Below are positions 10,066-62,631 of a stretch of DNA of 64,000 nucleotides, one piece after another. Position 1 is the first letter of the stretch. The number at the start of each line of letters is the position of its first letter. A program made the position numbers and the translations under genes. The stretch covers positions 34,112 through 98,111 of the forward strand of contig JBFMAK010000004.1 in the NCBI GenBank assembly GCA_040755695.1, given 5' to 3'. The notes below the pieces were generated by a model. The model was not told where the DNA came from, ran no database searches, and saw nothing but the letters and a program-made list of their open reading frames with translations. This DNA comes from Candidatus Iainarchaeum sp. (lineage in GTDB: Archaea > Iainarchaeota > Iainarchaeia > Iainarchaeales > 1-14-0-10-31-34).

Positions 10066-10222
10066 CGCGGAGGACGAGATTCGAACTCGCGTGAGCTTTT
10101 GCTCGCCAGCTTTCCTGCCGCCATTTTTTTCTCTTTGGGGCAACTTACCACTTTCTCTTTTTTCTAAAAAGAGAAAGGGGCAGGCTCAAGGCTGGTGCGT
10201 TGGACCACTCCGCCACCTCCGC
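10066..10222 (-). tRNA. tRNA-Ser(TGA) with a 73-nt intron at 37/38 (10112-10184)
   Basis: Acceptor GCGGAGG/CCTCCGC; CCAGC-CT-TGA-G|intron|A-GCTGG; canonical BHB (CTTG/CAGG central helix, two 3-nt bulges, CTGCC/GGCGG intron helix); long variable arm. Confidence 0.95.
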
Positions 10223-14729: not shown

Positions 14730-17700
14730 ATGAGCGAAGAAGAGGAAAAGCCAAGGGCTGAAAGCGGGGAAGAAAAGCACAGGGTGGAGAAGAGCATTGT
14801 GAAGGAAGACAACGACATATTTGATGAAGTGTTTGAGGGAAAAAAGGAAAAGAGGGTGGAGCAAAGAATTGAAGAGACTGAAGAAGAGGAAAAAGAAATG
14901 AATGAAAAGGAAGGAAAGGAATTAGGAGGGGAAGAGGAATTAATTCCAATTAAAGAAAAAAAGAAGAAAAAAGAAAAGGAAAAGAAGTTGAAGGGCGTTG
15001 AAGGCGCAAGGCAGGAAATGCTCCAAGAAAAAGAGAAAGACAAACTCAAGAGGGAGATAATAAAAAAGGCATTGAAGTCTGCAACAATAGAGCCAGAGAT
15101 AATGGAACCTGAAATTGAAGAAGTAGAATTAGAGCCTGAAGAGATAAGCCCTGAAGACATTGAAGGCCTGGGAGAAAAATACCTTAAAGAAGAATTAGGA
15201 GAAAAAGAAAGCGAAGTAGAATTAATTGAGCCTGCAACAGTGCCTTTAAGGTTTCTGGAGTATGAAGCAAAAAATTCTGTTTTCATTGGAAGAAAAAAAT
15301 CAGTCTTCCAGTCCTACAAGGACGAGGCAGGCCTCTTGATTGGGAGAGTGGAAGAAGACGGAAAACATAAAGAAAAAACAGTATTATTAGACGGACTGAA
15401 CCCTCACGTAATATTTGTTTGCGGCGCGAGAGGATCGGGAAAATGCCTTACAGGCGATTCACTGATAACATTAGAAGACGGATCAATTATACCTATAAAA
15501 GAATTAGAATACAACAACAAAAGGGTCTTGGGATTAAATCATGAACTAAAAATAGTTCCATTAAAAAAAGAGGGCTTTTACAAAAGAAAAGTAGACAAAT
15601 TGTTTTCTCTCCTGTTAAGGAGTGGAAGAGAAATAAAATTGACTCCAGAACACCCTCTCCTTACAATTAATGGGTGGGTGCAGGCACAAGAACTAAAAAG
15701 AAAAGACAGTATAGCAACTCCAAGAATTCTTAATGTGTTTGGAAACAGTAAAATGAAAGAAGGGGATGTAAAGCTTTTAGCTTATTTTATAGCAGAAGGC
15801 CATCTTGGAAATGCCTTTGTATTGTTTAGTAATCAAGACAAAAAAATAATTGAAGATTTCTCTAAAAGCATAAGGGAATTTGACGAAAACCTGAGGATCG
15901 AAGTGCACAGCAAAAGCTGGTGCTATAGAATAGCACAAAAAAAGAAAGGCATTGATTTAAGAAATATTGTAAGAAATGAAAAAGGGCAGTTTACAAACAA
16001 GGGTTTTGTCATTACACAAAAAAGCTCTCTGGCTAAATGGTTTGAAAGCATTGGCTTATACGGAAAGCTTTCAAAAGAGAAATTTATTCCGGAAGAAATA
16101 TTAAAGCTTTCAAAAGAACAACTGGCCTTATTTCTTAACAGGCTTTTCAGCTGTGATGGAAGCATTCACAAGGTAAGCGGAAGCGAAAAAAACTGGCTGA
16201 TTTCTTATGCTAGTTCCTCAGAGAAACTAATAAGGCAAGTGCAACACCTTCTGCTTAGATTTGGGATAATCTCAAAGATTAAACCAAAAAAAACAAAATT
16301 TAAAGAGAAAATATTTGATTCTTTTGAATTGGTTATTTCATCTGAAAGCGTAATCAAATTCATTCAAGAAATAGGCTTTTTTGGAATAAAAGAATTAAGA
16401 CAAGAAACTGCAATAAAAAACATGCTTGAAATTAACAGAAACCCCAACATAGATACAATTCCAAAAGACATTTGGGATATTTATAGGCCAAAGAATTGGA
16501 CGGCAACAGCCAGAGCTATGGGTTACAGCCAAAAGTCATTAAAGTCATTGCATAATGCCATAAATTATGCTCCTTCAAGAGAAAAGCTATTGAAAATTGC
16601 CCAAATAGATGAAAATAAGGGAGTACAACTGATAGCAGAATCAGACATTTTTTGGGATGAGGTAGTTGAATTAAAAGAAATAGAAGGGGAAGAAGTGTAT
16701 GATATTTCTGTCCCAGAATACCACAATTTTATTGCAAACGATATAATTGTTCATAATTCTTACGTCCTTGGAGTCATAGCAGAGGAACTGGCTCTAAGAA
16801 ACAAGAACATTGGCACAATAGTAATTGACCCTGTGGGAGTATTCTGGAGCATGAGGTATCCAAACAAAGAGGAAAAAGAATTAAAGGAATTAATTGAATG
16901 GAATTTAATGCCTCAAGGCCTGGAGAACTTAAAGGTATTCGTGCCAGAAGGCATTAAAGCAGAAATTCCAAGGAATACTTACGATGCAACATTTGCAGTA
17001 CTGCCTTCAATGCTTTCAGTGGAAGACTGGTGCCTTACGTTTGGAATGGAGCGCTTTGGGCCGACAGGCCTTCTGTTAGACAAAGTACTCAAAAAAATAG
17101 AGCATGGTTATAAGACAACAGAAGCAAAATACATTAAAGCAAAGAAAGGAAACTACAGCTTGGAGGAATTGATTCAATGCCTTGAAACAGAAGAAGAATT
17201 AAATTCAAAAGAGAGAGGCTACAAGCAAGATTCCATCAGGGCTCTGGCTTCAAGGCTTGAAGCAGCAAAGAACTGGGGCATATTCTCAGAGAAAGGCACT
17301 CCATTAAGCGAATTAAGCAGGGAAAACCAGCTTACTGTTTTAGACACAAGCTTTTTAGAGGACAATGTCGGGGCATTAGTAATAGGGATTCTGGCTAGAA
17401 GAATCCTTTCAGCAAGAAAGATTTCTACAAGAAAAGAGAGCGCAAAAAAATTGAAGGCAAGCATGGACGAAATGCTTGAACTGGAGATTCCTCCAACATG
17501 GCTGTTCATAGATGAAGCCCACACTTTAATTCCCTCAGGGAATGTAAAAACGCCTGCAACAGAGGCTTTAGTGGAATACGTAAAGCAGGGAAGGAGGCCT
17601 GGCTGCAGCATTGTTTTTGCAACACAGCAGCCCAGCGCAATAGACACAAAGGTTTTATCCCAATTGGATATTCTTATTTCGCATAAACTGGTTTTTGACG

Positions 17701-18932
17701 ACGACATAAAAGCAATATACAAGAGGATTCCGACAATAATTCCATTCAAATACAAGAAAAGCAATTTCATTAGGACTCTCCCAATTGGAAAAGCATTAGT
17801 AGGAGACAGGAGAGAGGAAACAAGCAGGGCTTTCGTGCTGAGCATTAGGCCCAGGATAAGCCAGCACGAAGGAAGGGATGTAGAGGCAACATCAATTGAA
17901 TCAAAAATGAGCGAAGAACAAGTCCAAAAACTTGCAGTGGAAATGCTTATCTCAAAATTGAACAGGGAAGGAGAAATAGAATTGCCTCAAGTGAATTCGC
18001 TTATTGACACGCTGAACAGCAAGTATAAAACAAAGGTAATGCTCTCCTCAGTTCTTGACGCCCTTGAAGACAAGATGGTTTCAATTGATTCAGAGAAAAT
18101 ATTCCTGCCTTCAGCAATAAAAAAAGAGGAAGAAATAGCAGAAAGAAAGGAATTAATTGAAGAAAAAGGAATTGAAAGGGGAATTGAAGGCAAAGCAGAA
18201 GAAATGGCAGAAGCATTTCATTCGTTCCCGATCAGATTCAGTGAAGAGAGAGCCAGAAGGATTGCTGAAAGCGCAAGGAAGAAGAAAAAATTGGGTTTGA
18301 TTGGAAGGGAAGAGCAATTGAAATCTTTGAATCTGTACTACGAAAAAATATTCAAGATTCAATACAATGACTTTAACCAAAGACAGGAATTCTTTTCCAA
18401 CAACTGTTATGTGAGTTCTGAGACCGGTGAATTTCTGCATGCAACAGACAGAGAATTCATTGAATCAAAAGGATTCTCAAAAGTCATTCCCTTAGGAAGG
18501 GATGAAGCAAGCACTCTCGGAAGGCTTATTGAAAGAAAAAACCTGAAAGAATTAATTGGGCTGGGAGGCATAAGCGAAGAGAAAGCAAAGAAAGTGCTCG
18601 AAGAACTTACAAGAAAAGGATTCGTGAAAAAAGAATTAAAAGAGGGGAAGGCATCCTATTTCCTCAACTCGCAATTAGAGCTTCCGCCAAACCCAAGGCA
18701 CAAAATTGTCAATTCACTGGATGAACTGCCTTTAACAGAAATAAAAGCAGGGCAAGTCAAGAAAGAAAACTTCACTGAAAGCCAGGTAATGCAGGCCCTG
18801 CAAAACTATTGGCCTTCAATTGTAATCAAAAAGCTTTCATTAATACTGAAGCCCTACTTTGAGGCTGTCCTAGAAGAAGCAGGAAAAGAAAGAAGGCTTA
18901 AGATAGACGCAATCACGGGAAAAATAATTTAA
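14730..18932 (+). CDS. HerA/FtsK-superfamily (DUF87-like) ATPase with an intein and a long acidic N-terminus
   Basis: Walker A GARGSGK|S split by the intein, IVIDPVG, Walker B LFIDEAH, QGRRPGCSIVFATQQP; about 962 aa after splicing. Confidence 0.88.
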   Translation: MSEEEEKPRAESGEEKHRVEKSIVKEDNDIFDEVFEGKKEKRVEQRIEETEEEEKEMNEKEGKELGGEEELIPIKEKKKKKEKEKKLKGVEGARQEMLQEKEKDKLKREIIKKALKSATIEPEIMEPEIEEVELEPEEISPEDIEGLGEKYLKEELGEKESEVELIEPATVPLRFLEYEAKNSVFIGRKKSVFQSYKDEAGLLIGRVEEDGKHKEKTVLLDGLNPHVIFVCGARGSGKCLTGDSLITLEDGSIIPIKELEYNNKRVLGLNHELKIVPLKKEGFYKRKVDKLFSLLLRSGREIKLTPEHPLLTINGWVQAQELKRKDSIATPRILNVFGNSKMKEGDVKLLAYFIAEGHLGNAFVLFSNQDKKIIEDFSKSIREFDENLRIEVHSKSWCYRIAQKKKGIDLRNIVRNEKGQFTNKGFVITQKSSLAKWFESIGLYGKLSKEKFIPEEILKLSKEQLALFLNRLFSCDGSIHKVSGSEKNWLISYASSSEKLIRQVQHLLLRFGIISKIKPKKTKFKEKIFDSFELVISSESVIKFIQEIGFFGIKELRQETAIKNMLEINRNPNIDTIPKDIWDIYRPKNWTATARAMGYSQKSLKSLHNAINYAPSREKLLKIAQIDENKGVQLIAESDIFWDEVVELKEIEGEEVYDISVPEYHNFIANDIIVHNSYVLGVIAEELALRNKNIGTIVIDPVGVFWSMRYPNKEEKELKELIEWNLMPQGLENLKVFVPEGIKAEIPRNTYDATFAVLPSMLSVEDWCLTFGMERFGPTGLLLDKVLKKIEHGYKTTEAKYIKAKKGNYSLEELIQCLETEEELNSKERGYKQDSIRALASRLEAAKNWGIFSEKGTPLSELSRENQLTVLDTSFLEDNVGALVIGILARRILSARKISTRKESAKKLKASMDEMLELEIPPTWLFIDEAHTLIPSGNVKTPATEALVEYVKQGRRPGCSIVFATQQPSAIDTKVLSQLDILISHKLVFDDDIKAIYKRIPTIIPFKYKKSNFIRTLPIGKALVGDRREETSRAFVLSIRPRISQHEGRDVEATSIESKMSEEQVQKLAVEMLISKLNREGEIELPQVNSLIDTLNSKYKTKVMLSSVLDALEDKMVSIDSEKIFLPSAIKKEEEIAERKELIEEKGIERGIEGKAEEMAEAFHSFPIRFSEERARRIAESARKKKKLGLIGREEQLKSLNLYYEKIFKIQYNDFNQRQEFFSNNCYVSSETGEFLHATDREFIESKGFSKVIPLGRDEASTLGRLIERKNLKELIGLGGISEEKAKKVLEELTRKGFVKKELKEGKASYFLNSQLELPPNPRHKIVNSLDELPLTEIKAGQVKKENFTESQVMQALQNYWPSIVIKKLSLILKPYFEAVLEEAGKERRLKIDAITGKII
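15444..16757 (+). mobile_element. Intein (438 aa) with a LAGLIDADG homing endonuclease
   Basis: Starts CLTGDSLI; block B IKLTPEHPLLT; LAGLIDADG-like LLAYFIAEG and LNRLFSCDG; ends VYDISV...HNFIANDIIVHN with Ser as the +1 residue. Confidence 0.95.
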
Positions 18933-24669: not shown

Positions 24670-25167
24670 ATGTCTGGCAAGAATGGCATTAAGGGGTTGT
24701 CCAACAAGGAGATTAGGGTAGTGTCTTTTCTGGAATTGGAGGAAAAGCGCTTCTTTTCCAAGAAAGACATTAAGGGTTTTTTCAAGTCTGCAAGCGATAT
24801 GCGCAAATACATTTATTCGCTTAAACATAAAGGCAGAATCGCCAAAATAAACAAGGATAAATATTATCTTGTTCCAATTCAGGCACAGAAAGCTTGGGCA
24901 GAACACCCTTTTATTGTTGCAGATGAACTTTTTAATGGAAAAGAATACTATATTGGTGGAAAGGCTGCTGCCCATTACTGGGGGCTTATAGACCAGCTTC
25001 CTTTTATTGTTGATGTTTTTTCCACTAAAAAGCAGGGCGCCAAAACAATCCTTGGAACAAAATTCAGGTTTCGCCGTATTAGAAAGCTTGGCGGTTTTGT
25101 AAGAAAAACTATTGGTAACCACGGTTTTCTGATTGCAAGCAAAAAGGAGAGCAAAAAATGGATTTAA
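24670..25167 (+). CDS. Type IV TA antitoxin (AbiEi-like, wHTH)
   Basis: N-terminal wHTH; YYIGGKAAAHYWGLIDQLPFIVDV is typical of the AbiEi C-terminal domain; overlaps the toxin gene. Confidence 0.82.
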   Translation: MSGKNGIKGLSNKEIRVVSFLELEEKRFFSKKDIKGFFKSASDMRKYIYSLKHKGRIAKINKDKYYLVPIQAQKAWAEHPFIVADELFNGKEYYIGGKAAAHYWGLIDQLPFIVDVFSTKKQGAKTILGTKFRFRRIRKLGGFVRKTIGNHGFLIASKKESKKWI

Positions 25168-25916
25168 TCAGCAAAGCCAGGCTTCAGAACATTGCGGCTG
25201 AAAAAGGCTTTAACCTCATTTACCTAGAAAAAGACTATTTTCTTACTGTCTTGCTGTATTTAATCAAAGACATTAAAGGCTTGTACTTCAAGGGCGGAAC
25301 AGCATTAAACAAAACTGTATTCAACCACACAAGGCTGAGCGAGGACTTGGACTTCACTTGCACGGCAAAAATAAGCGAAGTTAAAAGGAAGATTGAAGAA
25401 ATAATAAAAGAAAACCTTGGATTATTTACAAGAATTGGAACAGACAAAGAAACAGGAAAATTTACCAGAATCCAAGTCTTTTATAAAGGTTATTTCAGGA
25501 AAAAAGAATACGTTAATGTTGATTTGAATGCTAACGCCAGAATTCACTTAAAGCCGGAAGAAAAAAACGTAAAGCATTTTTATTACAGGAAAATCCCAAG
25601 GTTCTCGGTACAAACATTAAACTTCAAGGAACTTATCGCAGAAAAGGTTTCAGCAACATTCGGGCGCAACGCGCCAAGAGACTATTACGACCTTTACAAC
25701 ATAATAACCAAAAAAATTCCAGTAAACATAAAACTCGTAAAACAAAAACTGAAAGAACACAACCAAAAATTTGACATCAATAAAATATTCAAGCCAGGAA
25801 GCAAAGTATACAGTAGATGGCAAACAGACCTGCTTCCACTCACAAAAACAAAACCAGAATACAAAAAAGTAATAAAAACAATAGCAAAATACTTCAAATA
25901 CAAGCAAAAAAAATAA
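25158..25916 (+). CDS. Type IV TA toxin, AbiEii nucleotidyltransferase
   Basis: LEKDY, FKGGTALNK, RLSEDLDF, IAEKV and PRDYYDLY. Confidence 0.92.
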   Translation: MDLISKARLQNIAAEKGFNLIYLEKDYFLTVLLYLIKDIKGLYFKGGTALNKTVFNHTRLSEDLDFTCTAKISEVKRKIEEIIKENLGLFTRIGTDKETGKFTRIQVFYKGYFRKKEYVNVDLNANARIHLKPEEKNVKHFYYRKIPRFSVQTLNFKELIAEKVSATFGRNAPRDYYDLYNIITKKIPVNIKLVKQKLKEHNQKFDINKIFKPGSKVYSRWQTDLLPLTKTKPEYKKVIKTIAKYFKYKQKK

Positions 25917-27847: not shown

Positions 27848-27971
27848 GCGGCTATAGTCTAGTGGTTAGGATTCGAGCTTCCCAAATCAGAACCTAACGG
27901 TTCCGATACCTCCCTTAAGAGGTTGTGATTGGAGTGAGCTCGCTACCCGGGTTCGAATCCCGGTAGCCGCA
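27848..27971 (+). tRNA. tRNA-Gly(CCC) with a 52-nt intron at 37/38 (27885-27936, boundary ambiguous by 1 nt)
   Basis: GCGGCTA/TAGCCGC acceptor; CGAGC-TT-CCC-A|intron|A-GCTCG; central helix TTCC/GGAG with a relaxed BHB; T arm CCGGG-TTCGAAT-CCCGG. Confidence 0.93.
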
Positions 27972-29458: not shown

Positions 29459-30334
29459 CTAATCTTCTTTTATTAAAGTAGATTTGATTAACTGTTTTTC
29501 TTTTCTCTTGAACAAGGACTTAATTTCATTTAATTCCTTGTGTGGGCCAATGAATGTAATGGAAGGGAAATGAATGAATACCTTGATGCCTGAGAATTCA
29601 AGCGAAAGATTCTTTGAGGAGTCATACAAAAAGTTTTCGCTTACCAGTTCAAGCAATTTATCAAGAGACTGAACTGGAAGAAGTAAAGAATTCTCTTTCT
29701 TTTTTGCATTGAATTTGGCTGAAACCAAGTCAATGAAGGAAAGGTCATTTGATTCAAGAAAGAATTCCTGCGGTTGGAGCATGCTTTGGATTCTGGAAAT
29801 GCATTCAAGGGAATTCCAGTTCAAGTCCAAAGAAAAAAAGTCATTGAAATTGAATTCCTTGAGCGATTCAATGTGAGAGGAAAAAACCTTTGAAAGGTAA
29901 TCCAGGTGCCTTGCCTTCAATTCAATCCTCTTGTTCAATTCAATTAACTCGCTTACATTGAACTGGCTTGAACTCTTTGCTGCCTTCAGGAGCTCTGAGT
30001 CCTCTTTTGCTCGCTCAATTAAGGTTTGAAGGTACTGCACAATGGATTCAATTTCGTTCTCTGCGTTCTTGGTTTTGAGCAGGGAATTCAATTTCATTAA
30101 AAGCTTGTTCTTCATTTCAGAGTTAATTTCAGTTGCTCCTTTGTCTGTAATAAAGAAGTGTTCTCCTTTTTTTGTTATTAAGCCCAGGGAAAGGCAGTCC
30201 TTTAAAGTCCTTGAAAGGGAGGCCTTGGCTGAATTCATTGAACTATAAGAAGAAGAGGTTTTTCCGAGCAAGGAATTAAAGCTTATTCCCTGATATTGTT
30301 TAATCATCAGCAGAACAGAATTCTTTACAGTCAT
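29459..30334 (-). CDS. Hypothetical protein with an N-terminal winged helix and a coiled coil
   Basis: MTVKNSVLLMIKQ...LSRTLKDCLSLGLITKKGEHFFITDKG is a wHTH-like pattern. Confidence 0.7.
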   Translation of the reverse strand: MTVKNSVLLMIKQYQGISFNSLLGKTSSSYSSMNSAKASLSRTLKDCLSLGLITKKGEHFFITDKGATEINSEMKNKLLMKLNSLLKTKNAENEIESIVQYLQTLIERAKEDSELLKAAKSSSQFNVSELIELNKRIELKARHLDYLSKVFSSHIESLKEFNFNDFFSLDLNWNSLECISRIQSMLQPQEFFLESNDLSFIDLVSAKFNAKKKENSLLLPVQSLDKLLELVSENFLYDSSKNLSLEFSGIKVFIHFPSITFIGPHKELNEIKSLFKRKEKQLIKSTLIKED

Positions 30335-30412: not shown

Positions 30413-31213
30413 ATGATTTACTCAATAATAAATTCAATAAAGCTGCTGGCAACAAAACCCTTCTATATAATAACGGCTTTGGTGATAAGCATCATCAATG
30501 CAGTCCTATTATTTTTCGTCCAGGACGACTTAACGCAGTTTTTGAGCGGTTCTCTCCTAACAGGAAACCTGCCTTCAAGCAATATCACTGTACTGCCGTA
30601 CCAGGTAATTTCAATGTACCCAAAGCAGTCAATAGAATTGATTGCAGTCTTCTTCTTGTGGATTCTATTGAATGTAATGCTTTTCTTTGGCTTTGCCCAT
30701 TACTCAAAAAAATTAAACCAGAAAAAGGCAAATGCGGGCGCATCATTCGGCTTCATGGCAGAAAAACTGCTTGAGGCAGTGAAAGTTACAGTGTTCTTTT
30801 TCTTGATTGGAGCATTGTTTGCAACCTTAATCTGGTTTGCATTGGTTTTAACCATATCAAACGCAATTCTGGGGATTATTGCATTAATAATACTGGCAAT
30901 CATACTGCTTTTGGTTTTAATTGAATTCATTCTGACTCCTGCCGTGATGGCAGCAGAAGAACTGAAATTAAAGGAAGGCCTAAAAGAAACATTTGCCTTC
31001 TCCTCAAAGCACTCGATCGAAATATTAATACTCATAATAATTATTGGAGTGATTGACACCCTGATAAACGAAATAATAATTTTAATAGAAGATTTTTCCT
31101 TTGCGCAGAATTACTGGGTCCAGAACGGAATTGAAATAATTGCGGCATTGATTGTCACTTCCCTTGCATTCTTAATCTTAACCCAATTCTACTTAACAAA
31201 GAAAAAAGAATAA
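30413..31213 (+). CDS. Multi-pass membrane protein of unknown function
   Basis: 266 aa with about six hydrophobic segments; co-oriented with smc. Confidence 0.75.
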   Translation: MIYSIINSIKLLATKPFYIITALVISIINAVLLFFVQDDLTQFLSGSLLTGNLPSSNITVLPYQVISMYPKQSIELIAVFFLWILLNVMLFFGFAHYSKKLNQKKANAGASFGFMAEKLLEAVKVTVFFFLIGALFATLIWFALVLTISNAILGIIALIILAIILLLVLIEFILTPAVMAAEELKLKEGLKETFAFSSKHSIEILILIIIIGVIDTLINEIIILIEDFSFAQNYWVQNGIEIIAALIVTSLAFLILTQFYLTKKKE

Positions 31214-31237: not shown

Positions 31238-34024
31238 ATGGCCACAATAGCAAAGCTCAGGCTGAAAAACTTCAAGTCATTCAACAAAGCATTAATTCCT
31301 TTCAGCCAAGGCTTCACCTCAATAGCAGGAAGCAACGGAAGCGGAAAATCAAACATCCTTGACGCACTAATGTTTGTATTAGGAATAACAAGCCTTAAAA
31401 CCCTGCGCGCTTCAAAGCTCACAGACCTGGTGAACCACAACGCAACAGAAGGATACGCCTTAGTGGAGATTGAACTCCAAAACAAGGAAAACAATTACAT
31501 GCTTTCAAGGGAAATAGACAAAAAGGGAGTTTCAGTTTTCAGGCTAAACGGAAAGAGAAGCACATTAAACGAAGCCAACAGCCTCTTGAACGAATTAGGC
31601 ATAAGGGCAGACGGCTACAATATTGTGGTGCAAGGAGACATCACAAGAATAATTGAAATGAATGCAGTGGAGAGAAGGGAAATAATTGATGACCTTGCAG
31701 GGCTTAGGGAGTACGACGAAAAAAAAGGTGAAGCACTAAAGGAATTGGACAAAGTAGACCAGAAAATCAAGGAAGTGACAATTGTACTAAAGGAAAGGGA
31801 ATCATATTTAGAGGAAATAAAAAAAGAGAGGGAAGCAGCATTAGAGCACCAGAAGCTTTCAGCAGAATTGCAGCAGACTAAAGCAACCCTGCTTGACAGC
31901 GAAATAAAAAAAATAAACAAGGAAAGCAATGAATTCCAAGAAAAAAAGATGGAATTCACCCAGTCAAGGGAAAAAGCAGAGGGAACATTAAAAGAAATAG
32001 CAGAAGAAGAAAAAAGAATACAGCAAAAAATTGAAGAACTCAACAGAAAAATAATTGAGTCAAGCCAGAAAACCTATGCAGGAATAGGAATAGAATTAGA
32101 GGAAGCAAAATCAGAGAAAAGGCTCAGCGAAGAAAAAATCAGCCAGAGAAAGGAATTCACCATAAGGATAAACAACAGGATTCACTCCATCACAGAAAAA
32201 GCAAACTCAATAAAGGAAAGAAAAACAGAAACAAAAAATAGAATTAAAGAAATCCAGGAAAAAGAGCTTGAGTTTGAAGAAAAAATAAAAGAAAAGGAAA
32301 ACCAAATAAAAAAAGAAAAAGAGAGGATTGGCTCAATAAAAGAAAAAATAAACAGGCTCAAAGAAAAAATAAAAAACGAGAATATCAAGCTCAACAAAAG
32401 CAAAGAAGAATTCTTCCAGTCAAAAGCAGAAAGCGAAAGGCTCAAAAAAGAAATAGAAACACAAGAAGAAGCACTCAAAGAAATAAAAGAAGACCTTGCC
32501 TCAATAAATGTCTTCAGCAAAAGCAAGGGCCTAAGGGAAAAAATAAAGGGCTTGCAAAGACTCATTGAAGAAACACAGAAAGCCCTAGGAAAAGAGAAAG
32601 CAAGGGAAATAGAGAAAATAAAGGCTTTGACAAAAGAGATTGAGACAGGATTAAAGGAAATCCTTGAGGGCGTAGAGGAATTAAGCCCTGAAAATAAAAG
32701 GCAAAAAATTGAAGCCTTACAGAAAGAGAATGCAAAGAAATTCAAGGAAAGCTTTGAGCTGAAGTCAAGGCAAGAGAAAGAAATTGAATTAATAGAAAAA
32801 GAAACAGAAATAAGGGAGAGAGAAAGAATCGAGTTAGAGGCAATGCTTGGAGAGGAGAGTGGAACAGAAAAAGAATTAAGTGAACTGAAAGCCCAAAAGA
32901 TTGAAGCAGGGCTTCAAATAAATTCATTCAATGAAAGCCTAGGGGAAATGGAATTCAACGAGAAGGAAGGCATAAAAGAAACAAAAGACTTAATGGAAGA
33001 CATTGACAGCGCAAGAAAGGCAATGGCAAAAGAAGAAGAGAGAATAAGCGAACTGAATGAAAAGATAAGGAAACTGAATATTGAGCTCGAGAAGCAGACG
33101 CAGGAAAGCCATTACCTCTATGAAGAAAAAGAAAAGGAAAGCACGAAGACAGGCGCACTGCAGGAAAAAAAACTGAAGCTGGAACAAAAAATATCTAAGT
33201 TGATAAAGGAAGAAAACGAGATAGAGATAGAGAAATCAAAGAACGAGGTAAGGCTTGTTGACCTGCAGGAGGAATTCAAGGATTTAAGCGAAATAAAGAA
33301 ACTTGAAGGATTTGAAATAGAGGAATTAAGGGAGAGAATGCTTGAATGCGACAAGAGAATAAAGGAGTTAGGCCCAATAAACCTCAAAGCAATAGAGTCA
33401 TTCGAGGGCCACGCAAAAGAATTGATTGAAATAAAAGAGAAATCAGAGAAACTGGACAAGGAGAGGAATGCAGTAATCGAAATGATTGACAAGATTGAAG
33501 TGAAAAGGCTCAATGTATTCACTGAATGCTTCAATCAAATAAACCAGAACTTCAAGAAAATGTACGAGGCATTGGCAGAAGGAGAAGGCTTTTTGAGGCT
33601 GAGCAATGAATTGGACCCATTGAATTCAGGCCTGTTAATTGAAGCAAAGCACGAAAGCGAGAAATTAAAGAACATTGATTCAATGAGCGGGGGAGAAAAA
33701 AGCCTTACTGCAATAGCATTCCTTTTCGCAATACAATTATACCAGCCGGCTCCATTCTACTTCTTTGACGAGGCAGACGCTGCACTAGACAAAGCCAATT
33801 CAGTCAAATTAGCAAGAATGATAAGGCAGATATGCTCTGAAAGCCAGTTCATTGCAATAACCCACAATGACGTCCTAATAAAAGAATCAGACCAAATAAT
33901 AGGCGTTGCATTGAACGAAAACAACACTTCAGTCATAGGACTAAAATTAAGGGAAGAATACGAAAAAAAAATAAAAGAAAACAATTCTCCAGAAAAAAAA
34001 CAGCAAGCAATACAAATTGCCTGA
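31238..34024 (+). CDS. smc: Chromosome segregation protein SMC (no recognisable hinge)
   Basis: LKNFKSF, GSNGSGKSN, Q-loop VVQGD, LGPINLKAIE, MSGGEKS and FFDEADAALD; continuous coiled coil between the two head halves. Confidence 0.88.
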   Translation: MATIAKLRLKNFKSFNKALIPFSQGFTSIAGSNGSGKSNILDALMFVLGITSLKTLRASKLTDLVNHNATEGYALVEIELQNKENNYMLSREIDKKGVSVFRLNGKRSTLNEANSLLNELGIRADGYNIVVQGDITRIIEMNAVERREIIDDLAGLREYDEKKGEALKELDKVDQKIKEVTIVLKERESYLEEIKKEREAALEHQKLSAELQQTKATLLDSEIKKINKESNEFQEKKMEFTQSREKAEGTLKEIAEEEKRIQQKIEELNRKIIESSQKTYAGIGIELEEAKSEKRLSEEKISQRKEFTIRINNRIHSITEKANSIKERKTETKNRIKEIQEKELEFEEKIKEKENQIKKEKERIGSIKEKINRLKEKIKNENIKLNKSKEEFFQSKAESERLKKEIETQEEALKEIKEDLASINVFSKSKGLREKIKGLQRLIEETQKALGKEKAREIEKIKALTKEIETGLKEILEGVEELSPENKRQKIEALQKENAKKFKESFELKSRQEKEIELIEKETEIRERERIELEAMLGEESGTEKELSELKAQKIEAGLQINSFNESLGEMEFNEKEGIKETKDLMEDIDSARKAMAKEEERISELNEKIRKLNIELEKQTQESHYLYEEKEKESTKTGALQEKKLKLEQKISKLIKEENEIEIEKSKNEVRLVDLQEEFKDLSEIKKLEGFEIEELRERMLECDKRIKELGPINLKAIESFEGHAKELIEIKEKSEKLDKERNAVIEMIDKIEVKRLNVFTECFNQINQNFKKMYEALAEGEGFLRLSNELDPLNSGLLIEAKHESEKLKNIDSMSGGEKSLTAIAFLFAIQLYQPAPFYFFDEADAALDKANSVKLARMIRQICSESQFIAITHNDVLIKESDQIIGVALNENNTSVIGLKLREEYEKKIKENNSPEKKQQAIQIA

Positions 34025-34026
34025 AA

Positions 34027-36447
34027 TCATTTCTTCTTTTTAGTTTTCTTTCCGTTGGACTTTCTCTTGGGTTTAGGTTTTGATTTGGGGGTTTGCTCTG
34101 CCTTTATTTCTTCTTTTTCTAATTTACTTAAATCAATTTTGGGTTCTTCGTCTTTCTTCAGTTCCCTTTCTTCCTTTCTCTCTTCTTTTAGGAGCTGGGA
34201 TTTCTCTTTCGTGTAGGAATCCATTCTCTTCTTGTACTCCTGCTCTGAAATTAAGCCTCTGCCATAAAGCCTTTTCAGGCCTGCAAGGCTTCTGTCCTTT
34301 GCCTTCAGTTCCTCCCTGAACCTGTCAATGTCAATCAAGTGAGTGGACTTGGATTTAAGAGAGCCTTCAACTAATTCCAATTCCTTCTTGTACTCAGAGC
34401 TCAGCTCAGAGTGCTTTTCCTGTGAAATCCTTCCTGAAGCAAGGGCTTCATCCAATCTCAATTGAAGTTTCTTGATTCTTTCAGCCTGGTACTTGGGCTT
34501 AACAGAATAATTCAGGTAATTGCTGTACAGCAGGAGGATCACAAAAACAATTAATGCGACGATCACAGTCCCCATAATTAAATTGAAGAGAGCTTGCTGG
34601 TTATCTGAAGGGGTTAAATTAACATTTAAAATATTCCCTCCTTGCCCCTTTATGTATTGGGACTCACTGAAGGTGCCATAATAAGAGTAAATGTCTGTTG
34701 CTGAATCATACAATGCCTCTGAGAGATAAGCAAGGCTCAAGCCGTTCTTTAATTTTTCTTTTGCAACTATTACCTGCCCGTCCTTCTGATAGAAGTATGC
34801 TGCATCAAGGAAGTATCTTGCGTGAGCAACGTAAAGTCTGCTCCAGCCGAAGACCTTCTTTGAGCTTGAATTCTTTTTAATTGAAGATTCAATTGAATTT
34901 ATTTTTTCTTGGAGCATTGAATGAAGGGCATTAAAGTCTTTGTCTTTTGAGTCTAATTCAGCGTTAATTAATGCAACAGAAGAGCTTGAATCAAAGAGTT
35001 CAGCCAGAAACCATTTCAGTTCTTCCTCTTTTTTTGCTGCCTCAAGCCTTCTCTGAATGTCTTTAATGTCCTCTGAATCTAATACCTTGATGCCGTTCTC
35101 TGCATTAACCAAGTAATTGTCTGATGCCCCTTTAAAGTGGTCGTCAGGCTTTACCATTGCAGTAGAGTTCTTTGCTATCTCATAAAAGCTTTTTGAAGCC
35201 TTATACCAGCTTACAGCGAACTCGTAGTCCTGAATGTCTTCCAGGGCAGTAGAATTAGTTGTTGACCCTTCCCTAATATCAACTACAATTGTTGTTTTGG
35301 GCTGCTGCAATTTCTCCAAATTCAACTGGCTCCAAGCAAGCCTTTCCTGTGCTGCAATATACCAGTCTAACTGATCAATAGGAACAAAAGAGTCAAGGTT
35401 TGCCTTCAAATTGGTTATATCATTGCCTAATTCCTCAAGCCTTCTCTTAAACAAGGTTGAACTATCATCCAAAAGAGAAGGGTTATCAGAAACATCTTTT
35501 ACAAGAGAAGCATAAACATTCGCAAGGAAGGCATTGTTTGCAGCAGAGTAAAGGTAATTATTATCATAAAGGCTTTGTGTTTCCTTTAAAGTGCTTTCAG
35601 CTGAATTCAGCATGCTTAACAGGAAATTTATTTGGGCCTGATCTGAAAGCCTTGTGTTTGAGAGTGAAGCCTTTGCTTCATTTATTCTTTCCTTTGTTTC
35701 CTCAATCATTTCTTTTGTAAGTGACTGCATTGGATAAAGGCTTGAATCAAGAGGGATAGGCTTTGGCTCAAAGATTTCTTCAGGCCCTGCAGAGCCCTTG
35801 TTGACGTCAATCTGCTCTATTGGAGTGAAAGCAAGTTTAAGCACTTCATCAATGCCCTGAACTTCAACTACCTTCAGAGTCCATTCCTGAATAGCATAAT
35901 CAACCAAATTAATGTTTTTTACTGTGCTGTCTGTTTTGATCATCTGTTTTGCTGAGCCTTTAGGAATCATGAAAAGCCTTATTCCTGTCCTGGCCGCCTC
36001 CTTTGATTTTTCAAAGACTCCTGCAACGCTGCCTACAGTGCCGTCCTCTGAGATCGTGCCAGTAATTCCAACCCTTGCATCCAATTTCTTGTCTTCAAGC
36101 ATTGAAATTGTAAGCAGTGCCATTGCTGCTCCAGCGCTAGGGCCTTCAACCATTGAGGCATCAGAATTAATGTCAAACTTGTAATCGTAATCTTCAATTT
36201 TGCTGTAATAATTTCTTGCAAGCTTTAATGCAGTCCTTTCAGCGCTTTGAGTGGTAGTTCCAACCAAAGGGTTTACTGAAGACCAGATCTTTCCTGTTCC
36301 GGGCTCAATTGTAAGCGTTAAGTCAGCAGAGATTGCTCCTCCATCCCCTGTCACAGCAAAAATCTTCATTGAGCCATTGGTGATTACAGCAGAAACATTA
36401 AAAGAGAACAGAATTAAAAGAACGAAAACCAAAAAAAACTTCTTCAT
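34027..36447 (-). CDS. Archaeal secreted/membrane-anchored S16 (Lon-type) serine protease without ATPase domain
   Basis: Signal peptide; VEGPSAG catalytic Ser; ITGTISEDGTVGSVAGVFEK catalytic Lys; C-terminal TM helix and coiled coil. Confidence 0.85.
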   Translation of the reverse strand: MKKFFLVFVLLILFSFNVSAVITNGSMKIFAVTGDGGAISADLTLTIEPGTGKIWSSVNPLVGTTTQSAERTALKLARNYYSKIEDYDYKFDINSDASMVEGPSAGAAMALLTISMLEDKKLDARVGITGTISEDGTVGSVAGVFEKSKEAARTGIRLFMIPKGSAKQMIKTDSTVKNINLVDYAIQEWTLKVVEVQGIDEVLKLAFTPIEQIDVNKGSAGPEEIFEPKPIPLDSSLYPMQSLTKEMIEETKERINEAKASLSNTRLSDQAQINFLLSMLNSAESTLKETQSLYDNNYLYSAANNAFLANVYASLVKDVSDNPSLLDDSSTLFKRRLEELGNDITNLKANLDSFVPIDQLDWYIAAQERLAWSQLNLEKLQQPKTTIVVDIREGSTTNSTALEDIQDYEFAVSWYKASKSFYEIAKNSTAMVKPDDHFKGASDNYLVNAENGIKVLDSEDIKDIQRRLEAAKKEEELKWFLAELFDSSSSVALINAELDSKDKDFNALHSMLQEKINSIESSIKKNSSSKKVFGWSRLYVAHARYFLDAAYFYQKDGQVIVAKEKLKNGLSLAYLSEALYDSATDIYSYYGTFSESQYIKGQGGNILNVNLTPSDNQQALFNLIMGTVIVALIVFVILLLYSNYLNYSVKPKYQAERIKKLQLRLDEALASGRISQEKHSELSSEYKKELELVEGSLKSKSTHLIDIDRFREELKAKDRSLAGLKRLYGRGLISEQEYKKRMDSYTKEKSQLLKEERKEERELKKDEEPKIDLSKLEKEEIKAEQTPKSKPKPKRKSNGKKTKKKK

Positions 36448-58595: not shown

Positions 58596-59240
58596 ATGTT
58601 GGAGTTGACTGAAAAGCGTTTGGTTTCCATTTTGTGGATGCTGAAAAACAAGGGGAAAAAATGGAGCATTCACGAGCTGAGCAAAGGCTCTGTCGGATTG
58701 TCATATAGACCAACATTTAGTTTTGTCAAAGAGCTCGAGAACAAAGGTTTTATAGAAAAAGACCCAAAGACCGCAGAATATGGTGTTACAAGGGTTGTTG
58801 ATTTGGTTAGATTTGTTTCGCTTGCAAGGCCTGTTGGAAGCTTGAAAACGCTTAATTTTCATTCGCCGCTTGAATTTTCTAAAACCCTGAAAATGGTTCA
58901 AGAATCAAAATTGCCACTTGCTTTCACTGTTTTTGCGGGAAGCGAGCTTTACAGGCAATACGTGAAAACAGACCAAGTACACGCTTACATAAAAAAAAGG
59001 GAGGAAGAAAAGTGGGGCAAATACCTGCTTTCAAAAAACTGCCTGAAAGCCCAAAAAAGCCAGGCAAATTTATTCTTGATTCCAACAGAACAAGGGGCTT
59101 TTTTCAAGGACGCCACAAAAGTGAGAGGCTATTCCATTGCGCCAGCGCCAATTCTTTTGAGCGATCTCTTGAGCTTCGGCGGCTTGGCTGAAGAACAGGC
59201 AAGCTTTCTGATGGAAGAATGGCTTAACAACAGGCTGTGA
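58596..59240 (+). CDS. wHTH plus AbiEi_2-like antitoxin/regulator
   Basis: N-terminal wHTH; C-terminal PILLSDLLSFGGLAEEQASFL resembles AbiEi_2/DUF2186. Confidence 0.7.
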   Translation: MLELTEKRLVSILWMLKNKGKKWSIHELSKGSVGLSYRPTFSFVKELENKGFIEKDPKTAEYGVTRVVDLVRFVSLARPVGSLKTLNFHSPLEFSKTLKMVQESKLPLAFTVFAGSELYRQYVKTDQVHAYIKKREEEKWGKYLLSKNCLKAQKSQANLFLIPTEQGAFFKDATKVRGYSIAPAPILLSDLLSFGGLAEEQASFLMEEWLNNRL

Positions 59241-59247
59241 TTCTCAA

Positions 59248-59991
59248 ATGGAAAAACTGATGATTGAAAAGTCAGACGAATTCCTGTATACTTTCTTTAA
59301 GAACCTTGGAAAGACCGAGATTGATGAAATTGGCTTGATGGGTGGCTGGGCAGTGCATTACACTCTCAAAAACAAGGATGTTGTTCACATTGGTTCAAGA
59401 GACATTGACATTTTCTTTGACCCTGCAAAAATAAATCCAAAAGCCATTGAAGAAAAACTCAAAAGTATGGGTTTTCATCCACACTCCACTTTCCGCTGGG
59501 TAAAAATATTCCATAGCGAAACGGGAAAAGAGCTTGGCTTGGAAGAAAGCAAAAAACACCCAATCCACAATCTTTCATACGTCTACTTTGACATTACCAC
59601 GCCAAACAAAATAGGGCACTCAATGCCAGAGCCATTGCTCAAAAAGGTTTTCAAGAAAGAAAAAGAACACGTAAAAATCAAAGACATTCACGTAATGGTT
59701 CCTTCTCCCAAAATACTGATTGAAATGAAGCTGACGTCTATTCCTGGACGAAGCGATGCTTTCAAAAGAACAAAAGACATAGCAGACCTTTACGCTCTGC
59801 TGGAAAACAATCTTGGCTTGTGGGTTGTGAAAAAAGGCCAAAGAGTAAAAACAAAGGGTTTGGACAAAAAACTTGCAAAAGGATTCAAGGAAAAGCTTGA
59901 AAGATTCAAAATAGACGGCACAATTGCAGCGTCAGCCACAATGCTGAAAATAGGGCAAACCACGCTTACGGATTTGTTGGAAAAAATTTGA
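59248..59991 (+). CDS. Nucleotidyltransferase (AbiEii-like toxin)
   Basis: LMGGWAV, SRDIDIF and KRTKDIADLYALL. Confidence 0.78.
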   Translation: MEKLMIEKSDEFLYTFFKNLGKTEIDEIGLMGGWAVHYTLKNKDVVHIGSRDIDIFFDPAKINPKAIEEKLKSMGFHPHSTFRWVKIFHSETGKELGLEESKKHPIHNLSYVYFDITTPNKIGHSMPEPLLKKVFKKEKEHVKIKDIHVMVPSPKILIEMKLTSIPGRSDAFKRTKDIADLYALLENNLGLWVVKKGQRVKTKGLDKKLAKGFKEKLERFKIDGTIAASATMLKIGQTTLTDLLEKI

Positions 59992-62291: not shown

Positions 62292-62631
62292 GGCGGGTAG
62301 GACAAGGCCAGCTGACGGTTCCTTAAGTGGAGCTGAGGAAAGTCCGTCCATCCAAACTTTTTGAAAAAAGTTTGATCAAAACAAACTTTTAAGAAAAGTT
62401 TGATCAAAAAACACTTGAAAAGGTGGCTCTCGGAACAGAAACGAAACCATTCAAGGATTACAATGAATGAAAAAAGAGGTTCTTTGAATATAGTTTCAAG
62501 CTTTGCTTGAAATTTTTCAAAGCTTTGCTTTGAAATAGGATGAAACGGCTGAGAGCAGATGCAAGCCTTCAATGGCGCTCAGGTGAATGCTGGATAAAAA
62601 CAAAAGACGGCTTACTCTGTCCTGCTCCGCC
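62292..62631 (+). ncRNA. rnpB: RNase P RNA
   Basis: P1 GGGTAGGACA/TGTCCTGCTC; P2 CCAGC/GCTGG; conserved GAGGAAAGTCC, ACAGAAA, GATGAAACG, GAATGC and ACAAAAGACGGCTTA; P4 AAGTCCG/CGGCTT. Confidence 0.9.
62353..62409 (+). repeat. Tandem family D hairpins inside the RNase P RNA
   Basis: CAAACTTTT-TGAA-AAAAGTTTG-ATCAAAA followed by CAAACTTTT-AAG-AAAAGTTTG-ATCAAAA. Confidence 0.88.

What the first reader, a model, noticed from the sequence alone, without database searches (positions are those of the whole stretch)
31238..34024. SMC with canonical condensin-type heads but no hinge domain
Seen: a 928-aa protein with all head motifs and the LGPINLKAIE motif. Between roughly residues 170 and 760 it reads as an uninterrupted E/K-rich coiled coil. 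At the expected apex (about 32490-32730, ...GVEELSPENKRQK...) there is no globular hinge (no GV.G.V..L or GR.TFLPL-like motif) and no Rad50 CxxC hook. Known: prokaryotic Smc is about 1150-1200 aa and dimerises through the hinge. No scpA/scpB is adjacent. Inference: a naturally hinge-less SMC with another dimerisation mode, or a precise in-frame deletion of about 240 aa.
Basis: partly seen in the sequence, partly recalled or inferred. Interest (0 to 1): 0.68.

Follow-up and report, generated by a model that had tools for sequence, protein, structure and literature searches.

The report
Archaeal SMC lacking hinge and hook
This is a real, intact chromosome-organising SMC ATPase from a tiny DPANN archaeon whose usual dimerising "hinge" is naturally missing: its closest relatives carry a Rad50-style zinc hook in that place, and this lineage has only a bare helical hairpin, so it shows that SMC proteins can evolve without the domain thought to hold them together.

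Summary
Window 31238-34024 (+) encodes a 928-aa protein with all SMC head motifs, SMC-type arms and joint. It has no hinge (Pfam at E<=10 and my own hinge HMM, with positive controls) and no CxxC.

It is neither a mis-assembly nor a recent deletion. An 89%-identical orthologue from an independent assembly has the same architecture (dS 0.71, dN/dS 0.08, no indel at the tip). About 20 protein clusters, down to 36-40% identity, share the roughly 905-957-aa hinge-less, hook-less form.

The gene sits in a locus conserved across Iainarchaeota (Diapherotrites): membrane protein, then smc, then a convergent Lon_C gene and the L1/L10/P1 operon. At that same locus most relatives (about 990 or 806 aa) carry CP[VTIL]C exactly at the arm midpoint, and Pfam Rad50_zn_hook hits it. 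One relative still has a true hinge. A Nanoarchaeota clade acquired a hook independently.

So the apex module of this orthologous Smc is evolutionarily labile: hinge, zinc hook or plain hairpin. AlphaFold2 predicts the window protein's tip as a helix-loop-helix (426-481, loop 450-454). How it dimerises is unknown. No scpA or scpB lies in the window or in the related loci. No paper describing natural zinc-hook or tip-less archaeal SMCs was found.

The parts
31238..34024 (+). smc orthologue, 928 aa, hinge-less and hook-less
   Evidence: ORF. Pfam SMC_N only. TIGR02169 gives 556 bits in two stretches. The best PDB match is the Pyrococcus Smc head, 1e-99. Foldseek ranks Smc4 and Pyrococcus Smc first.
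31238..31732 (+). N-terminal half of the ATPase head (residues 1-165), with Walker A at 31328-31351 and Q-loop at 31625-31642
   Evidence: Motif positions. Invariant columns in the 96-sequence alignment. AF2 pLDDT 85-94. dN/dS 0.019.
31733..32503 (+). N-terminal arm helix (residues 166-422), including the conserved neck and the conserved KTY..G...EE landmark at 32069-32104
   Evidence: AF2 helix 157-422. G284 and E288 are nearly invariant. dN/dS 0.085.
32504..32686 (+). Tip module (residues 423-483): kink 423-425, helix 426-449, loop 450-454 (32585-32599), helix 455-481, kink 482-483. It replaces the hinge or zinc hook.
   Evidence: AF2 DSSP, pLDDT 50-68. The kinks and the variable-length loop align across 19 hook-less homologues. 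The region is slightly enriched in hydrophobic residues, 0.28-0.31 against 0.19-0.25 in the rest of the arms. dN/dS 0.27.
32687..33502 (+). C-terminal arm helix (residues 484-755), with a joint-like break at 677-693 and the SMC-typical LGPINLKAIE motif at 33368-33397
   Evidence: AF2. The P. yayanosii Smc head plus coiled coil plus joint (5xei) is the best PDB match. Motif position.
33503..33952 (+). C-terminal half of the ATPase head (residues 756-905): signature 33683-33703, Walker B/D-loop 33755-33790, H-loop 33857-33868
   Evidence: dN/dS 0.027.
30413..31213 (+). 266-aa polytopic membrane protein 24 nt upstream on the same strand; a conserved gene pair with the hinge-less smc
   Evidence: An orthologue lies on the same strand upstream of smc, mostly immediately upstream, in 33 related Iainarchaeota loci, plus one weak hit in an Aenigmatarchaeota locus. 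Precomputed DUF7847 or GPDPase_memb on orthologues. No Pfam hit for the window copy. It is absent next to the hinge-bearing relative in L083.
29459..30334 (-). 291-aa protein with an N-terminal winged helix followed by a helical region, divergently oriented; a conserved neighbour and not a kleisin
   Evidence: Found in the window and 24 related loci. hhalign against a ScpA profile gives probability 0.7%. Only weak wHTH Pfam hits.
34027..36447 (-). 806-aa Lon_C-domain protein with an N-terminal hydrophobic signal-like segment, convergent with smc; a conserved neighbour, followed by the rpP1/L10/L1 genes
   Evidence: Pfam Lon_C 50 bits. Found downstream of smc (convergent in nearly all cases) in about 29 related loci and in L083. 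Synteny tables.

Best explanation
The gene is the Smc (condensin-type SMC ATPase) orthologue of an Iainarchaeota/Diapherotrites (DPANN) archaeon, and its apex has been remodelled.

In this radiation the same syntenic gene carries one of three tips. One is a true hinge (rare). The second is a Rad50-like CPxC zinc hook at the exact midpoint of arms of canonical length (the commonest form). The third, as here, is a plain helix-loop-helix tip on arms about 37-40 residues shorter per strand than in the hook form.

Shown here: the ATPase head, neck, joint-like break and arms are SMC-type and under strong purifying selection. The hinge and the hook are really absent. The form is shared by many independent assemblies.

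Inferred: the protein still works as an ATP-driven DNA-organising SMC. Two arms are probably held together by ATP-dependent head engagement, by lateral arm-to-arm (rod) packing, and possibly by tip-to-tip packing of the slightly more hydrophobic terminal hairpins and/or a bridging kleisin. No dedicated constitutive dimerisation domain would be involved. The engineered B. subtilis Smc whose hinge was replaced by the P. furiosus Rad50 zinc hook is functional (PMC5344682), so the nature of the apex module is not critical for Smc function.
For: Identity as SMC:
- TIGR02169 gives 556 bits, against 78-90 bits for the three best Rad50 models (weaker for the rest) and 67 bits for ASRP.
- The best PDB match is the Pyrococcus Smc head/joint at 1e-99. 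Foldseek ranks Smc4 and P. yayanosii Smc above Rad50.

No hinge and no hook: with positive controls.

Natural and selected:
- The orthologue P0002/L001 comes from another assembly, is 89% identical, has no tip indel, and gives dN/dS 0.08 overall, 0.02-0.03 in the heads and 0.27 at the tip.
- 19 hook-less homologues of 905-957 aa appear among the best 120 hits. More appear in the exhaustive search of 50%-identity clusters (P0121, P0132, P0140).

Orthology: the same neighbourhood (membrane protein, smc, Lon_C, rpP1-L10-L1-L11) surrounds hook-less genes (window, L001, L003, L004), a hook gene (L002) and about 30 GTDB loci. A hinge-bearing relative, P0123 (Pfam hinge 96 bits), lies between rpL44e and Lon_C at the same place.

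Zinc hook in relatives:
- CP[VTIL]C sits at the midpoint in 132 of 198 sequences.
- Pfam Rad50_zn_hook hits 8 of 9 tested, 4 of them above the gathering score.
- The AF2 model of P0011 puts residues 485-497 at the tip, flanked by helices with pLDDT 82-89.

Arm lengths from head to tip (N strand/C strand) are 324/300 in the long hook class, 228/209 in the short hook class and 287/260 here.

Head-domain NJ tree with 100 bootstraps: the Iainarchaeota hinge-less clade is supported 100/100 and nests among hinge-bearing archaeal SMCs. The Nanoarchaeota hook clade is supported 100/100, and the two together are never monophyletic (0/100).
Against: - No dimer could be modelled, and the tip has low AF2 confidence (pLDDT 50-68).
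- The hydrophobic enrichment at the tip is small, and the heptad pattern there looks like an ordinary two-stranded coiled coil.
- No kleisin (ScpA) or ScpB was found in the window or in about 40 related loci. The whole genome could not be searched, so a Smc-ScpAB-type complex is unproven.
- A second, canonical smc elsewhere in the genome cannot be excluded.
- The protein scores below the NCBIfam equivalog cut-off (556 < 729).
- The hook-less forms are not monophyletic in the head tree (0/100), and the trees are NJ only, so the order of hinge, hook and plain-tip states is unresolved.
- No reads were available to check the assembly directly.
Confidence: 0.72

Rival explanations
1. Assembly artefact, or a recent in-frame deletion or pseudogene: a normal 1170-aa smc lost about 240 codons in this contig only.
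For: The size difference from canonical Smc (about 1170 - 928 = 242 aa) is roughly the hinge plus a short stretch of each arm. No sequencing runs could be found to check coverage.
Against: An independent ENA assembly carries the same architecture with dS 0.71 and dN/dS 0.08 and no indel at the tip. About 20 protein clusters, down to 36-40% identity and from NCBI, JGI, ENA and Logan assemblies, share the form. The closest longer relatives have a zinc hook, not a hinge.
Confidence: 0.02
2. It is a Rad50/SbcC-type double-strand-break repair ATPase, or a functional replacement for Rad50, rather than a chromosome-organising Smc.
For: Relatives carry a Rad50-like CPxC hook that is recognised by Pfam PF04423. 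Rad50 also lacks a hinge. No kleisin was found nearby.
Against: The head and both arms match SMC models far better than Rad50 models (556 bits against at most 90). Matches to PDB Rad50 are 1e-19 or weaker, against 1e-99 for Smc. The SMC-typical LGPINLKAIE motif and a joint-like break are present. The window protein has no hook. No Metallophos/Mre11 gene lies within +/-8-10 kb in four Pfam-annotated orthologous loci. A hinge-bearing Smc occupies the same locus in a relative.
Confidence: 0.06
3. It is an accessory SMC-like paralogue (defence-type such as Lamassu LmuB, MADS mad3 or Wadjet JetC, or ASRP-like), and the genome's real Smc is elsewhere.
For: PADLOC mad3 gives 172 bits and LmuB 69 bits. 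NCBI annotators call relatives only 'AAA family ATPase'. The whole genome could not be examined.
Against: The defence and ASRP scores are far below the SMC score. The gene lies in a phylum-wide conserved core neighbourhood next to ribosomal protein genes, not in a defence island. It is a positional orthologue of a hinge-bearing Smc. In the GTDB scan the complete Iainarchaeum genome CP064981.1 contributed only its hook-type locus among the 80 best, while foreign canonical SMCs made the list.
Confidence: 0.1
4. Same identity but a different mechanism: the protein is not a constitutive dimer. It acts single-armed, or dimerises only transiently through ATP-engaged heads, possibly anchored or organised by the conserved upstream membrane protein.
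For: No recognisable dimerisation module is present. The tip is the least constrained part (dN/dS 0.27) and is poorly predicted. The membrane-protein/smc gene pair is conserved in 33 related Iainarchaeota loci and is absent next to the one hinge-bearing relative.
Against: From general knowledge of B. subtilis and eukaryotic SMCs, known SMC functions need two arms. The arm length of the hook-less class is tightly constrained (landmark span 371-394 aa in 19 sequences), as expected if the arms pair in register. The tip keeps conserved kinks and a regular hydrophobic core. The membrane-protein link rests on adjacency only.
Confidence: 0.25

Closest known systems
Archaeal/bacterial Smc of Smc-ScpAB (e.g. 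Pyrococcus Smc; TIGR02169)
   Same: Head motifs, neck, joint-like break and antiparallel arms are shared. It gives the best sequence and fold matches. A hinge-bearing relative is a positional orthologue.
   Different: There is no hinge. The arms are about 40 residues shorter per strand than in canonical-length relatives. The score is below the equivalog cut-off. No ScpA or ScpB was found nearby.
Engineered B. subtilis Smc(Zh), in which the hinge is replaced by the P. furiosus Rad50 zinc hook, and the mini-Smc arm-length variants (Buermann et al. 2017, PMC5344682)
   Same: The hook-bearing relatives of this protein are natural counterparts: SMC head and arms with a CPxC hook. The discrete length classes (about 806, 925 and 990 aa) recall the arm-length constraints reported there.
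   Different: The chimera is an artificial construct in a bacterium. The window protein has gone one step further and has no hook either.
Rad50/SbcC
   Same: Both are hinge-less ABC ATPases with a long antiparallel coiled coil. Relatives share the CxxC hook.
   Different: The head and arms are SMC-type, not Rad50-type. The window protein has no hook. No Mre11 gene is adjacent.
'Hinge-less' SMC cluster from marine metagenomes, Actinobacteria-like (Sussfeld et al. 2025, PMC12153180)
   Same: SMC-type heads and arms, no hinge and no CXXC, found as a cohesive environmental cluster and described only from predicted structures.
   Different: That cluster is bacterial and marine. No zinc-hook intermediates or syntenic hinge-bearing orthologues were reported for it. 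Its relationship to the archaeal clade was not tested here.
Archaea-specific SMC-related proteins (ClsN, Sph1/2; PMC9389158)
   Same: They are archaeal SMC-superfamily proteins without a hinge, and most have a zinc hook.
   Different: ASRPs are about 600 aa and only distantly related (NF045487 gives 67 bits against a cut-off of 300). The present family nests inside canonical archaeal Smc.

Membership tests
Smc (prokaryotic condensin ATPase, Smc-ScpAB) | ABC-type head split between the N and C termini, with Walker A, Q-loop, signature, Walker B/D-loop and H-loop | tested here: met
   Motifs located. Pfam SMC_N 119 bits. Pyrococcus Smc head 1e-99.
Smc (prokaryotic condensin ATPase, Smc-ScpAB) | Long intramolecular antiparallel coiled coil with a joint near the head | tested here: met
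   AF2 helices 157-780 with a break at 677-693. Sequence and fold match to 5xei, the Smc head plus coiled coil plus joint.
Smc (prokaryotic condensin ATPase, Smc-ScpAB) | Central hinge dimerisation domain (PF06470) | tested here: not met
   No Pfam hit at E<=10. No hit with my own hinge HMM. Positive controls score 81-121 bits.
Smc (prokaryotic condensin ATPase, Smc-ScpAB) | Score above the NCBIfam equivalog cut-off (TIGR02169, 729.4 bits) | tested here: not met
   555.8 bits in two stretches that skip the hinge part of the profile.
Smc (prokaryotic condensin ATPase, Smc-ScpAB) | Kleisin ScpA (and ScpB) partner encoded in the genome | tested here: inconclusive
   ScpA and ScpB profiles built from 8 and 5 loci next to hinge-bearing SMCs find nothing in the 64-kb window or in about 40 Iainarchaeota loci.
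Smc (prokaryotic condensin ATPase, Smc-ScpAB) | Descent from, and positional orthology with, a canonical hinge-bearing smc | tested here: met
   P0123 (Pfam hinge 96 bits) lies at the same rpL44e / smc / Lon_C locus. The clade nests within hinge-bearing archaeal SMCs.
Rad50/SbcC | CxxC zinc hook at the coiled-coil apex | tested here: not met
   There is no CxxC in the window protein. The hook is present in most relatives.
Rad50/SbcC | Rad50-type head (NCBIfam Rad50 equivalogs) | tested here: not met
   The three best Rad50 models give 78-90 bits, and the others less, against cut-offs of 700-1087.
Rad50/SbcC | Adjacent Mre11/SbcD nuclease gene | tested here: not met
   No such gene lies within +/-8-10 kb in four Pfam-annotated orthologous loci. 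Not every window ORF was scanned.
Archaea-specific SMC-related proteins (ASRP: ClsN/Sph) | Match to NF045487, length about 600 aa, zinc hook | tested here: not met
   67 bits against a cut-off of 300. The protein is 928 aa and has no hook.
Defence SMC-like ATPases (Lamassu LmuB, MADS mad3, Wadjet JetC) | Best match to a defence model, and location in a defence operon | tested here: not met
   mad3 172 bits, LmuB 69 bits and JetC 28 bits, all far below the 556 bits for SMC. The neighbours are core genes conserved phylum-wide.
Marine 'hinge-less SMC' cluster (PMC12153180) | Sequence membership in that Actinobacteria-like cluster | not tested
Only the architecture is comparable.

The most novel reading that the evidence does not exclude
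In DPANN archaea the SMC apex is an exchangeable module. The hinge was swapped for a Rad50-type zinc hook at least twice independently (in Iainarchaeota and in a Nanoarchaeota clade). The hook or hinge was then lost several times, leaving a bare helical hairpin, as in this window. The resulting proteins would remain the cell's only functional condensin-type SMC. That would mean that neither a hinge nor any dedicated constitutive dimerisation domain is required for SMC function, and that arm length and geometry are the conserved determinants.
Probability: 0.35. Interest if true: 0.8.

Novelty: new variant of a known kind. Interest (0 to 1): 0.66.

Why it matters
The hinge is textbook-essential for SMC dimerisation. 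It has also been proposed as a DNA-binding site and a DNA entry gate. An engineered Smc with a zinc hook works in B. subtilis (PMC5344682). The hook-bearing relatives found here would be natural counterparts of that chimera, and the window's protein goes further by having no apex domain at all, while staying under strong purifying selection at a core-genome locus.

This gives the SMC field a ready-made natural series on one orthologous scaffold: hinge, hook and bare tip, each with discrete arm lengths. The series can be used to test what the apex is for, whether constitutive dimerisation is needed, and how arm length is tuned.

It also matters for annotation. These proteins fall below the SMC equivalog cut-off and are labelled 'AAA family ATPase', so surveys seeded on hinge domains will score these lineages as lacking Smc.

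Tried and rejected
- Read mapping across the tip: no public run holds the sequence.
- Exact-protein look-up of the window protein: not on record. The 89% orthologue was used instead.
No dimer model was obtained.
- Upstream 291-aa wHTH protein as a hidden kleisin: rejected, hhalign probability 0.7% against a ScpA profile.
- ScpA and ScpB in the window or related loci: none found.
- A second SMC/Rad50 head in the window: none found.
- Extra hydrophobic seam at the tip as evidence for a four-helix-bundle dimer: only a mild enrichment with an ordinary heptad pattern, so not conclusive.
- A single clean deletion of the hook: rejected as too simple. AF2 break positions in hook-type P0011 (444-446, hook 485-497, 551-552) against the query (423-425, 450-454, 482-483) imply changes in several arm segments.
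- Monophyly of the hook-less forms: 0/100 bootstraps.
- Literature searches for natural zinc-hook or hinge-less archaeal SMC: nothing found beyond the marine bacterial 'hinge-less SMC' and the engineered chimeras.
Full report
**Observation.** The ORF at 31238-34024 (+) is real and encodes 928 aa. Every SMC head motif is present: Walker A 31-38, Q-loop 130-135, LGPINLKAIE 711-720, signature 816-822, Walker B/D-loop 840-851 and H-loop 874-877.

Pfam finds SMC_N and no SMC_hinge even at E<=10. NCBIfam SMC_prok_A scores 556 bits, below its 729-bit equivalog cut-off. It aligns query 4-475 to profile positions 2-489, while SMC_prok_B aligns query 431-895 to profile positions 683-1171, so the hinge part of the profiles is skipped. 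The three best Rad50 models reach only 78-90 bits (the others less), and ASRP reaches 67.

The best solved-structure matches are Pyrococcus Smc head constructs, including the head plus coiled coil plus joint, at 1e-99. Rad50 appears only at 1e-19 or weaker. The protein has no CxxC.

The Pfam hinge model and a hinge HMM that I built both detect the hinge strongly in all control SMCs, including short-armed ones of 809-837 aa and a bacterial one. They detect nothing in this protein or in its 120 closest relatives.

**Structure.** AlphaFold2 with a 96-sequence alignment (mean pLDDT 78.9) gives a normal SMC head and one long antiparallel coiled coil. There is a joint-like break at 677-693. At the far end there is a helix-loop-helix: kink 423-425, helix 426-449, loop 450-454, helix 455-481 and kink 482-483. 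Confidence there is low, pLDDT 50-68. Foldseek against the PDB ranks yeast Smc4 and P. yayanosii Smc first and Rad50 lower.

The quoted GVEELSPENKRQK is the C-side kink.

**Not an artefact.**
- No sequencing runs could be found. However, an independent ENA assembly (L001) carries an 89%-identical orthologue in the same gene order.
- The only indels between the two lie at residues 733-736 and 912-918, none at the tip. dS is 0.71. dN/dS is 0.08 overall, 0.02-0.03 in the heads, 0.085 in the arms and 0.27 in the tip.
- Nineteen of the 120 best database hits, from NCBI, JGI, ENA and Logan assemblies, are hinge-less and hook-less proteins of 905-957 aa, with identity to the query going down to 36-40%. 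The exhaustive search of 50%-identity cluster representatives adds more: P0121, P0132 and P0140.

**Relatives carry a zinc hook.**
- Nearly all other close homologues, in length classes of about 990-1010 and about 806 aa plus intein-bearing forms, have CP[VTIL]C exactly at the midpoint, for example residue 489 of 993.
- Pfam Rad50_zn_hook hits this region in 8 of 9 tested, with four above the gathering score, and none of the nine has a hinge.
- The AF2 model of the hook-type P0011 places residues 485-497 at the tip, between helices with pLDDT 82-89.
- Head-to-tip arm lengths (N strand/C strand) are 324/300 residues in the long hook class, about the canonical Smc length. They are 228/209 in the short hook class and 287/260 in the window protein. 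Each class is tightly constrained.

**Orthology.** The same gene order surrounds the hook-less genes (window, L001, L003, L004), a hook-type gene (L002) and roughly 25-35 GTDB Iainarchaeum loci. The order is a wHTH protein on the minus strand, a roughly 260-aa membrane protein, smc, a convergent Lon_C protein, and then rpP1-L10-L1-L11.

A relative found in the exhaustive search, P0123 (1012 aa), has a genuine hinge (Pfam 96 bits). It lies between rpL44e and Lon_C at the equivalent position. So hinge, hook and bare-tip forms are positional orthologues.

**Phylogeny.** In a head-domain NJ tree the Iainarchaeota hinge-less clade is monophyletic (100/100) and nests among hinge-bearing archaeal SMCs. 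A Nanoarchaeota clade of 951-959 aa with CPLC at the midpoint and no hinge is separately monophyletic (100/100). The two together are never monophyletic (0/100), which argues for independent hook acquisitions. The hook-less forms are not monophyletic (0/100). The query's own clade has 73/100 support.

These are NJ trees on about 400 columns, so the order of events is unresolved.

**Partners.** ScpA and ScpB profiles built from loci next to hinge-bearing SMCs find no match in the 64-kb window or in the Iainarchaeota loci. Adjacency is also missing at several hinge-bearing DPANN loci, so this says little about whether a kleisin exists.

The upstream wHTH protein is not ScpA-like. No second SMC/Rad50 head is in the window. 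PADLOC defence models (mad3 172 bits, LmuB 69 bits) score far below SMC.

**Mechanism.** Shown: this is an SMC-type ATPase with SMC arms and no apex domain, conserved and under purifying selection at a core locus. Inferred: it still acts as a DNA-organising SMC whose two arms are held together by head engagement and arm or tip packing. The tip region is modestly more hydrophobic (0.28-0.31 against 0.19-0.25) and keeps conserved kinks. Otherwise it looks like an ordinary two-stranded coiled coil, and no dimer model could be run.

The engineered B. subtilis Smc with a Rad50 hook is functional, and arm geometry dominates the phenotype there (PMC5344682). A Rad50 carrying an SMC-type (MukB) hinge also works (PMC6969161). 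Both make a non-hinge apex plausible.

**Novelty.** A hinge-less, hook-less SMC cluster has been described from marine, Actinobacteria-like metagenomes (PMC12153180). ASRPs are distant zinc-hook SMC-like proteins (PMC9389158). Surveys of archaeal SMC treat DPANN SMCs as canonical (PMC8665677).

I found no paper describing natural zinc-hook Smc orthologues or bare-tip archaeal Smc. I therefore rate this as a new variant of a known kind, of clear interest to the SMC field.

Noticed in passing
window 14730-18932 (+): A 1400-aa HerA/DUF87-type ATPase is interrupted by a LAGLIDADG intein (Intein_splicing 93 bits, LAGLIDADG_3 80 bits).
   Followed up: partly
P0088, P0090, P0101, P0109 (1538-1563 aa); L006 3858-8384: Several smc orthologues in related Iainarchaeota carry inteins (precomputed PF14528/PF14890), so the same gene is an intein target in this phylum. 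L006 (1509 aa) is assumed to be of this kind from its length only.
   Followed up: no
window 30413-31213 (+): A 266-aa polytopic membrane protein ends 24 nt before the smc start codon. An orthologue lies upstream of smc on the same strand in 33 related Iainarchaeota loci, for both hook and hook-less forms. It is absent next to the one hinge-bearing relative (L083). Possible functional coupling is untested.
   Followed up: partly
window 29459-30334 (-): A 291-aa protein with an N-terminal winged helix followed by a helical region and a C-terminal domain (TrmB-like layout, from memory) is conserved 1-3 kb upstream of smc in 24 related loci. It is not ScpA-like.
   Followed up: partly
window 34027-36447 (-): An 806-aa protein with a signal-like N-terminus, a Lon_C protease domain and a SHOCT-like, Lys-rich C-terminal region is convergent with smc and conserved there in about 29 related loci.
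   Followed up: partly
window 24670-25916 (+) and 58596-59991 (+): There are two candidate AbiEi/AbiEii-like toxin-antitoxin pairs. The first is inferred from the orthologous pair in L001, where only the downstream gene has a precomputed AbiEii hit. The second has only weak AbiEi_2, AbiEii and NTP_transf_5 hits, below the Pfam cut-offs.
   Followed up: no
window 27848-27971 (+) and 10066-10222 (-): Two Rfam tRNA matches of 124 and 157 nt were not called by ARAGORN. They are probably intron-containing archaeal tRNAs. An archaeal RNase P RNA lies at 62296-62626.
   Followed up: no
L019, L029, L043, L068, L079 (match at 6001-~8870 in each): This is a Nanoarchaeota/Woesearchaeota-labelled clade of SMCs, 951-959 aa, with CPLC at the midpoint and no hinge. 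It nests among hinge-bearing SMCs and is separate from the Iainarchaeota clade, so it looks like an independent hinge-to-hook swap.
   Followed up: partly
L040, L042, L057, L063, L070, L073, L081: Aenigmatarchaeota-type SMCs of 809-837 aa keep a strong hinge but have arms roughly 160-180 residues shorter per strand, making them natural 'mini-Smc' proteins. ScpA is adjacent in L040 and L042.
   Followed up: partly
L047 418-3531; P0168, P0187: These SMCs of 1038-1084 aa have no detectable hinge and no CxxC, but their middle looks globular rather than coiled coil. It may be a degenerate hinge.
   Followed up: no
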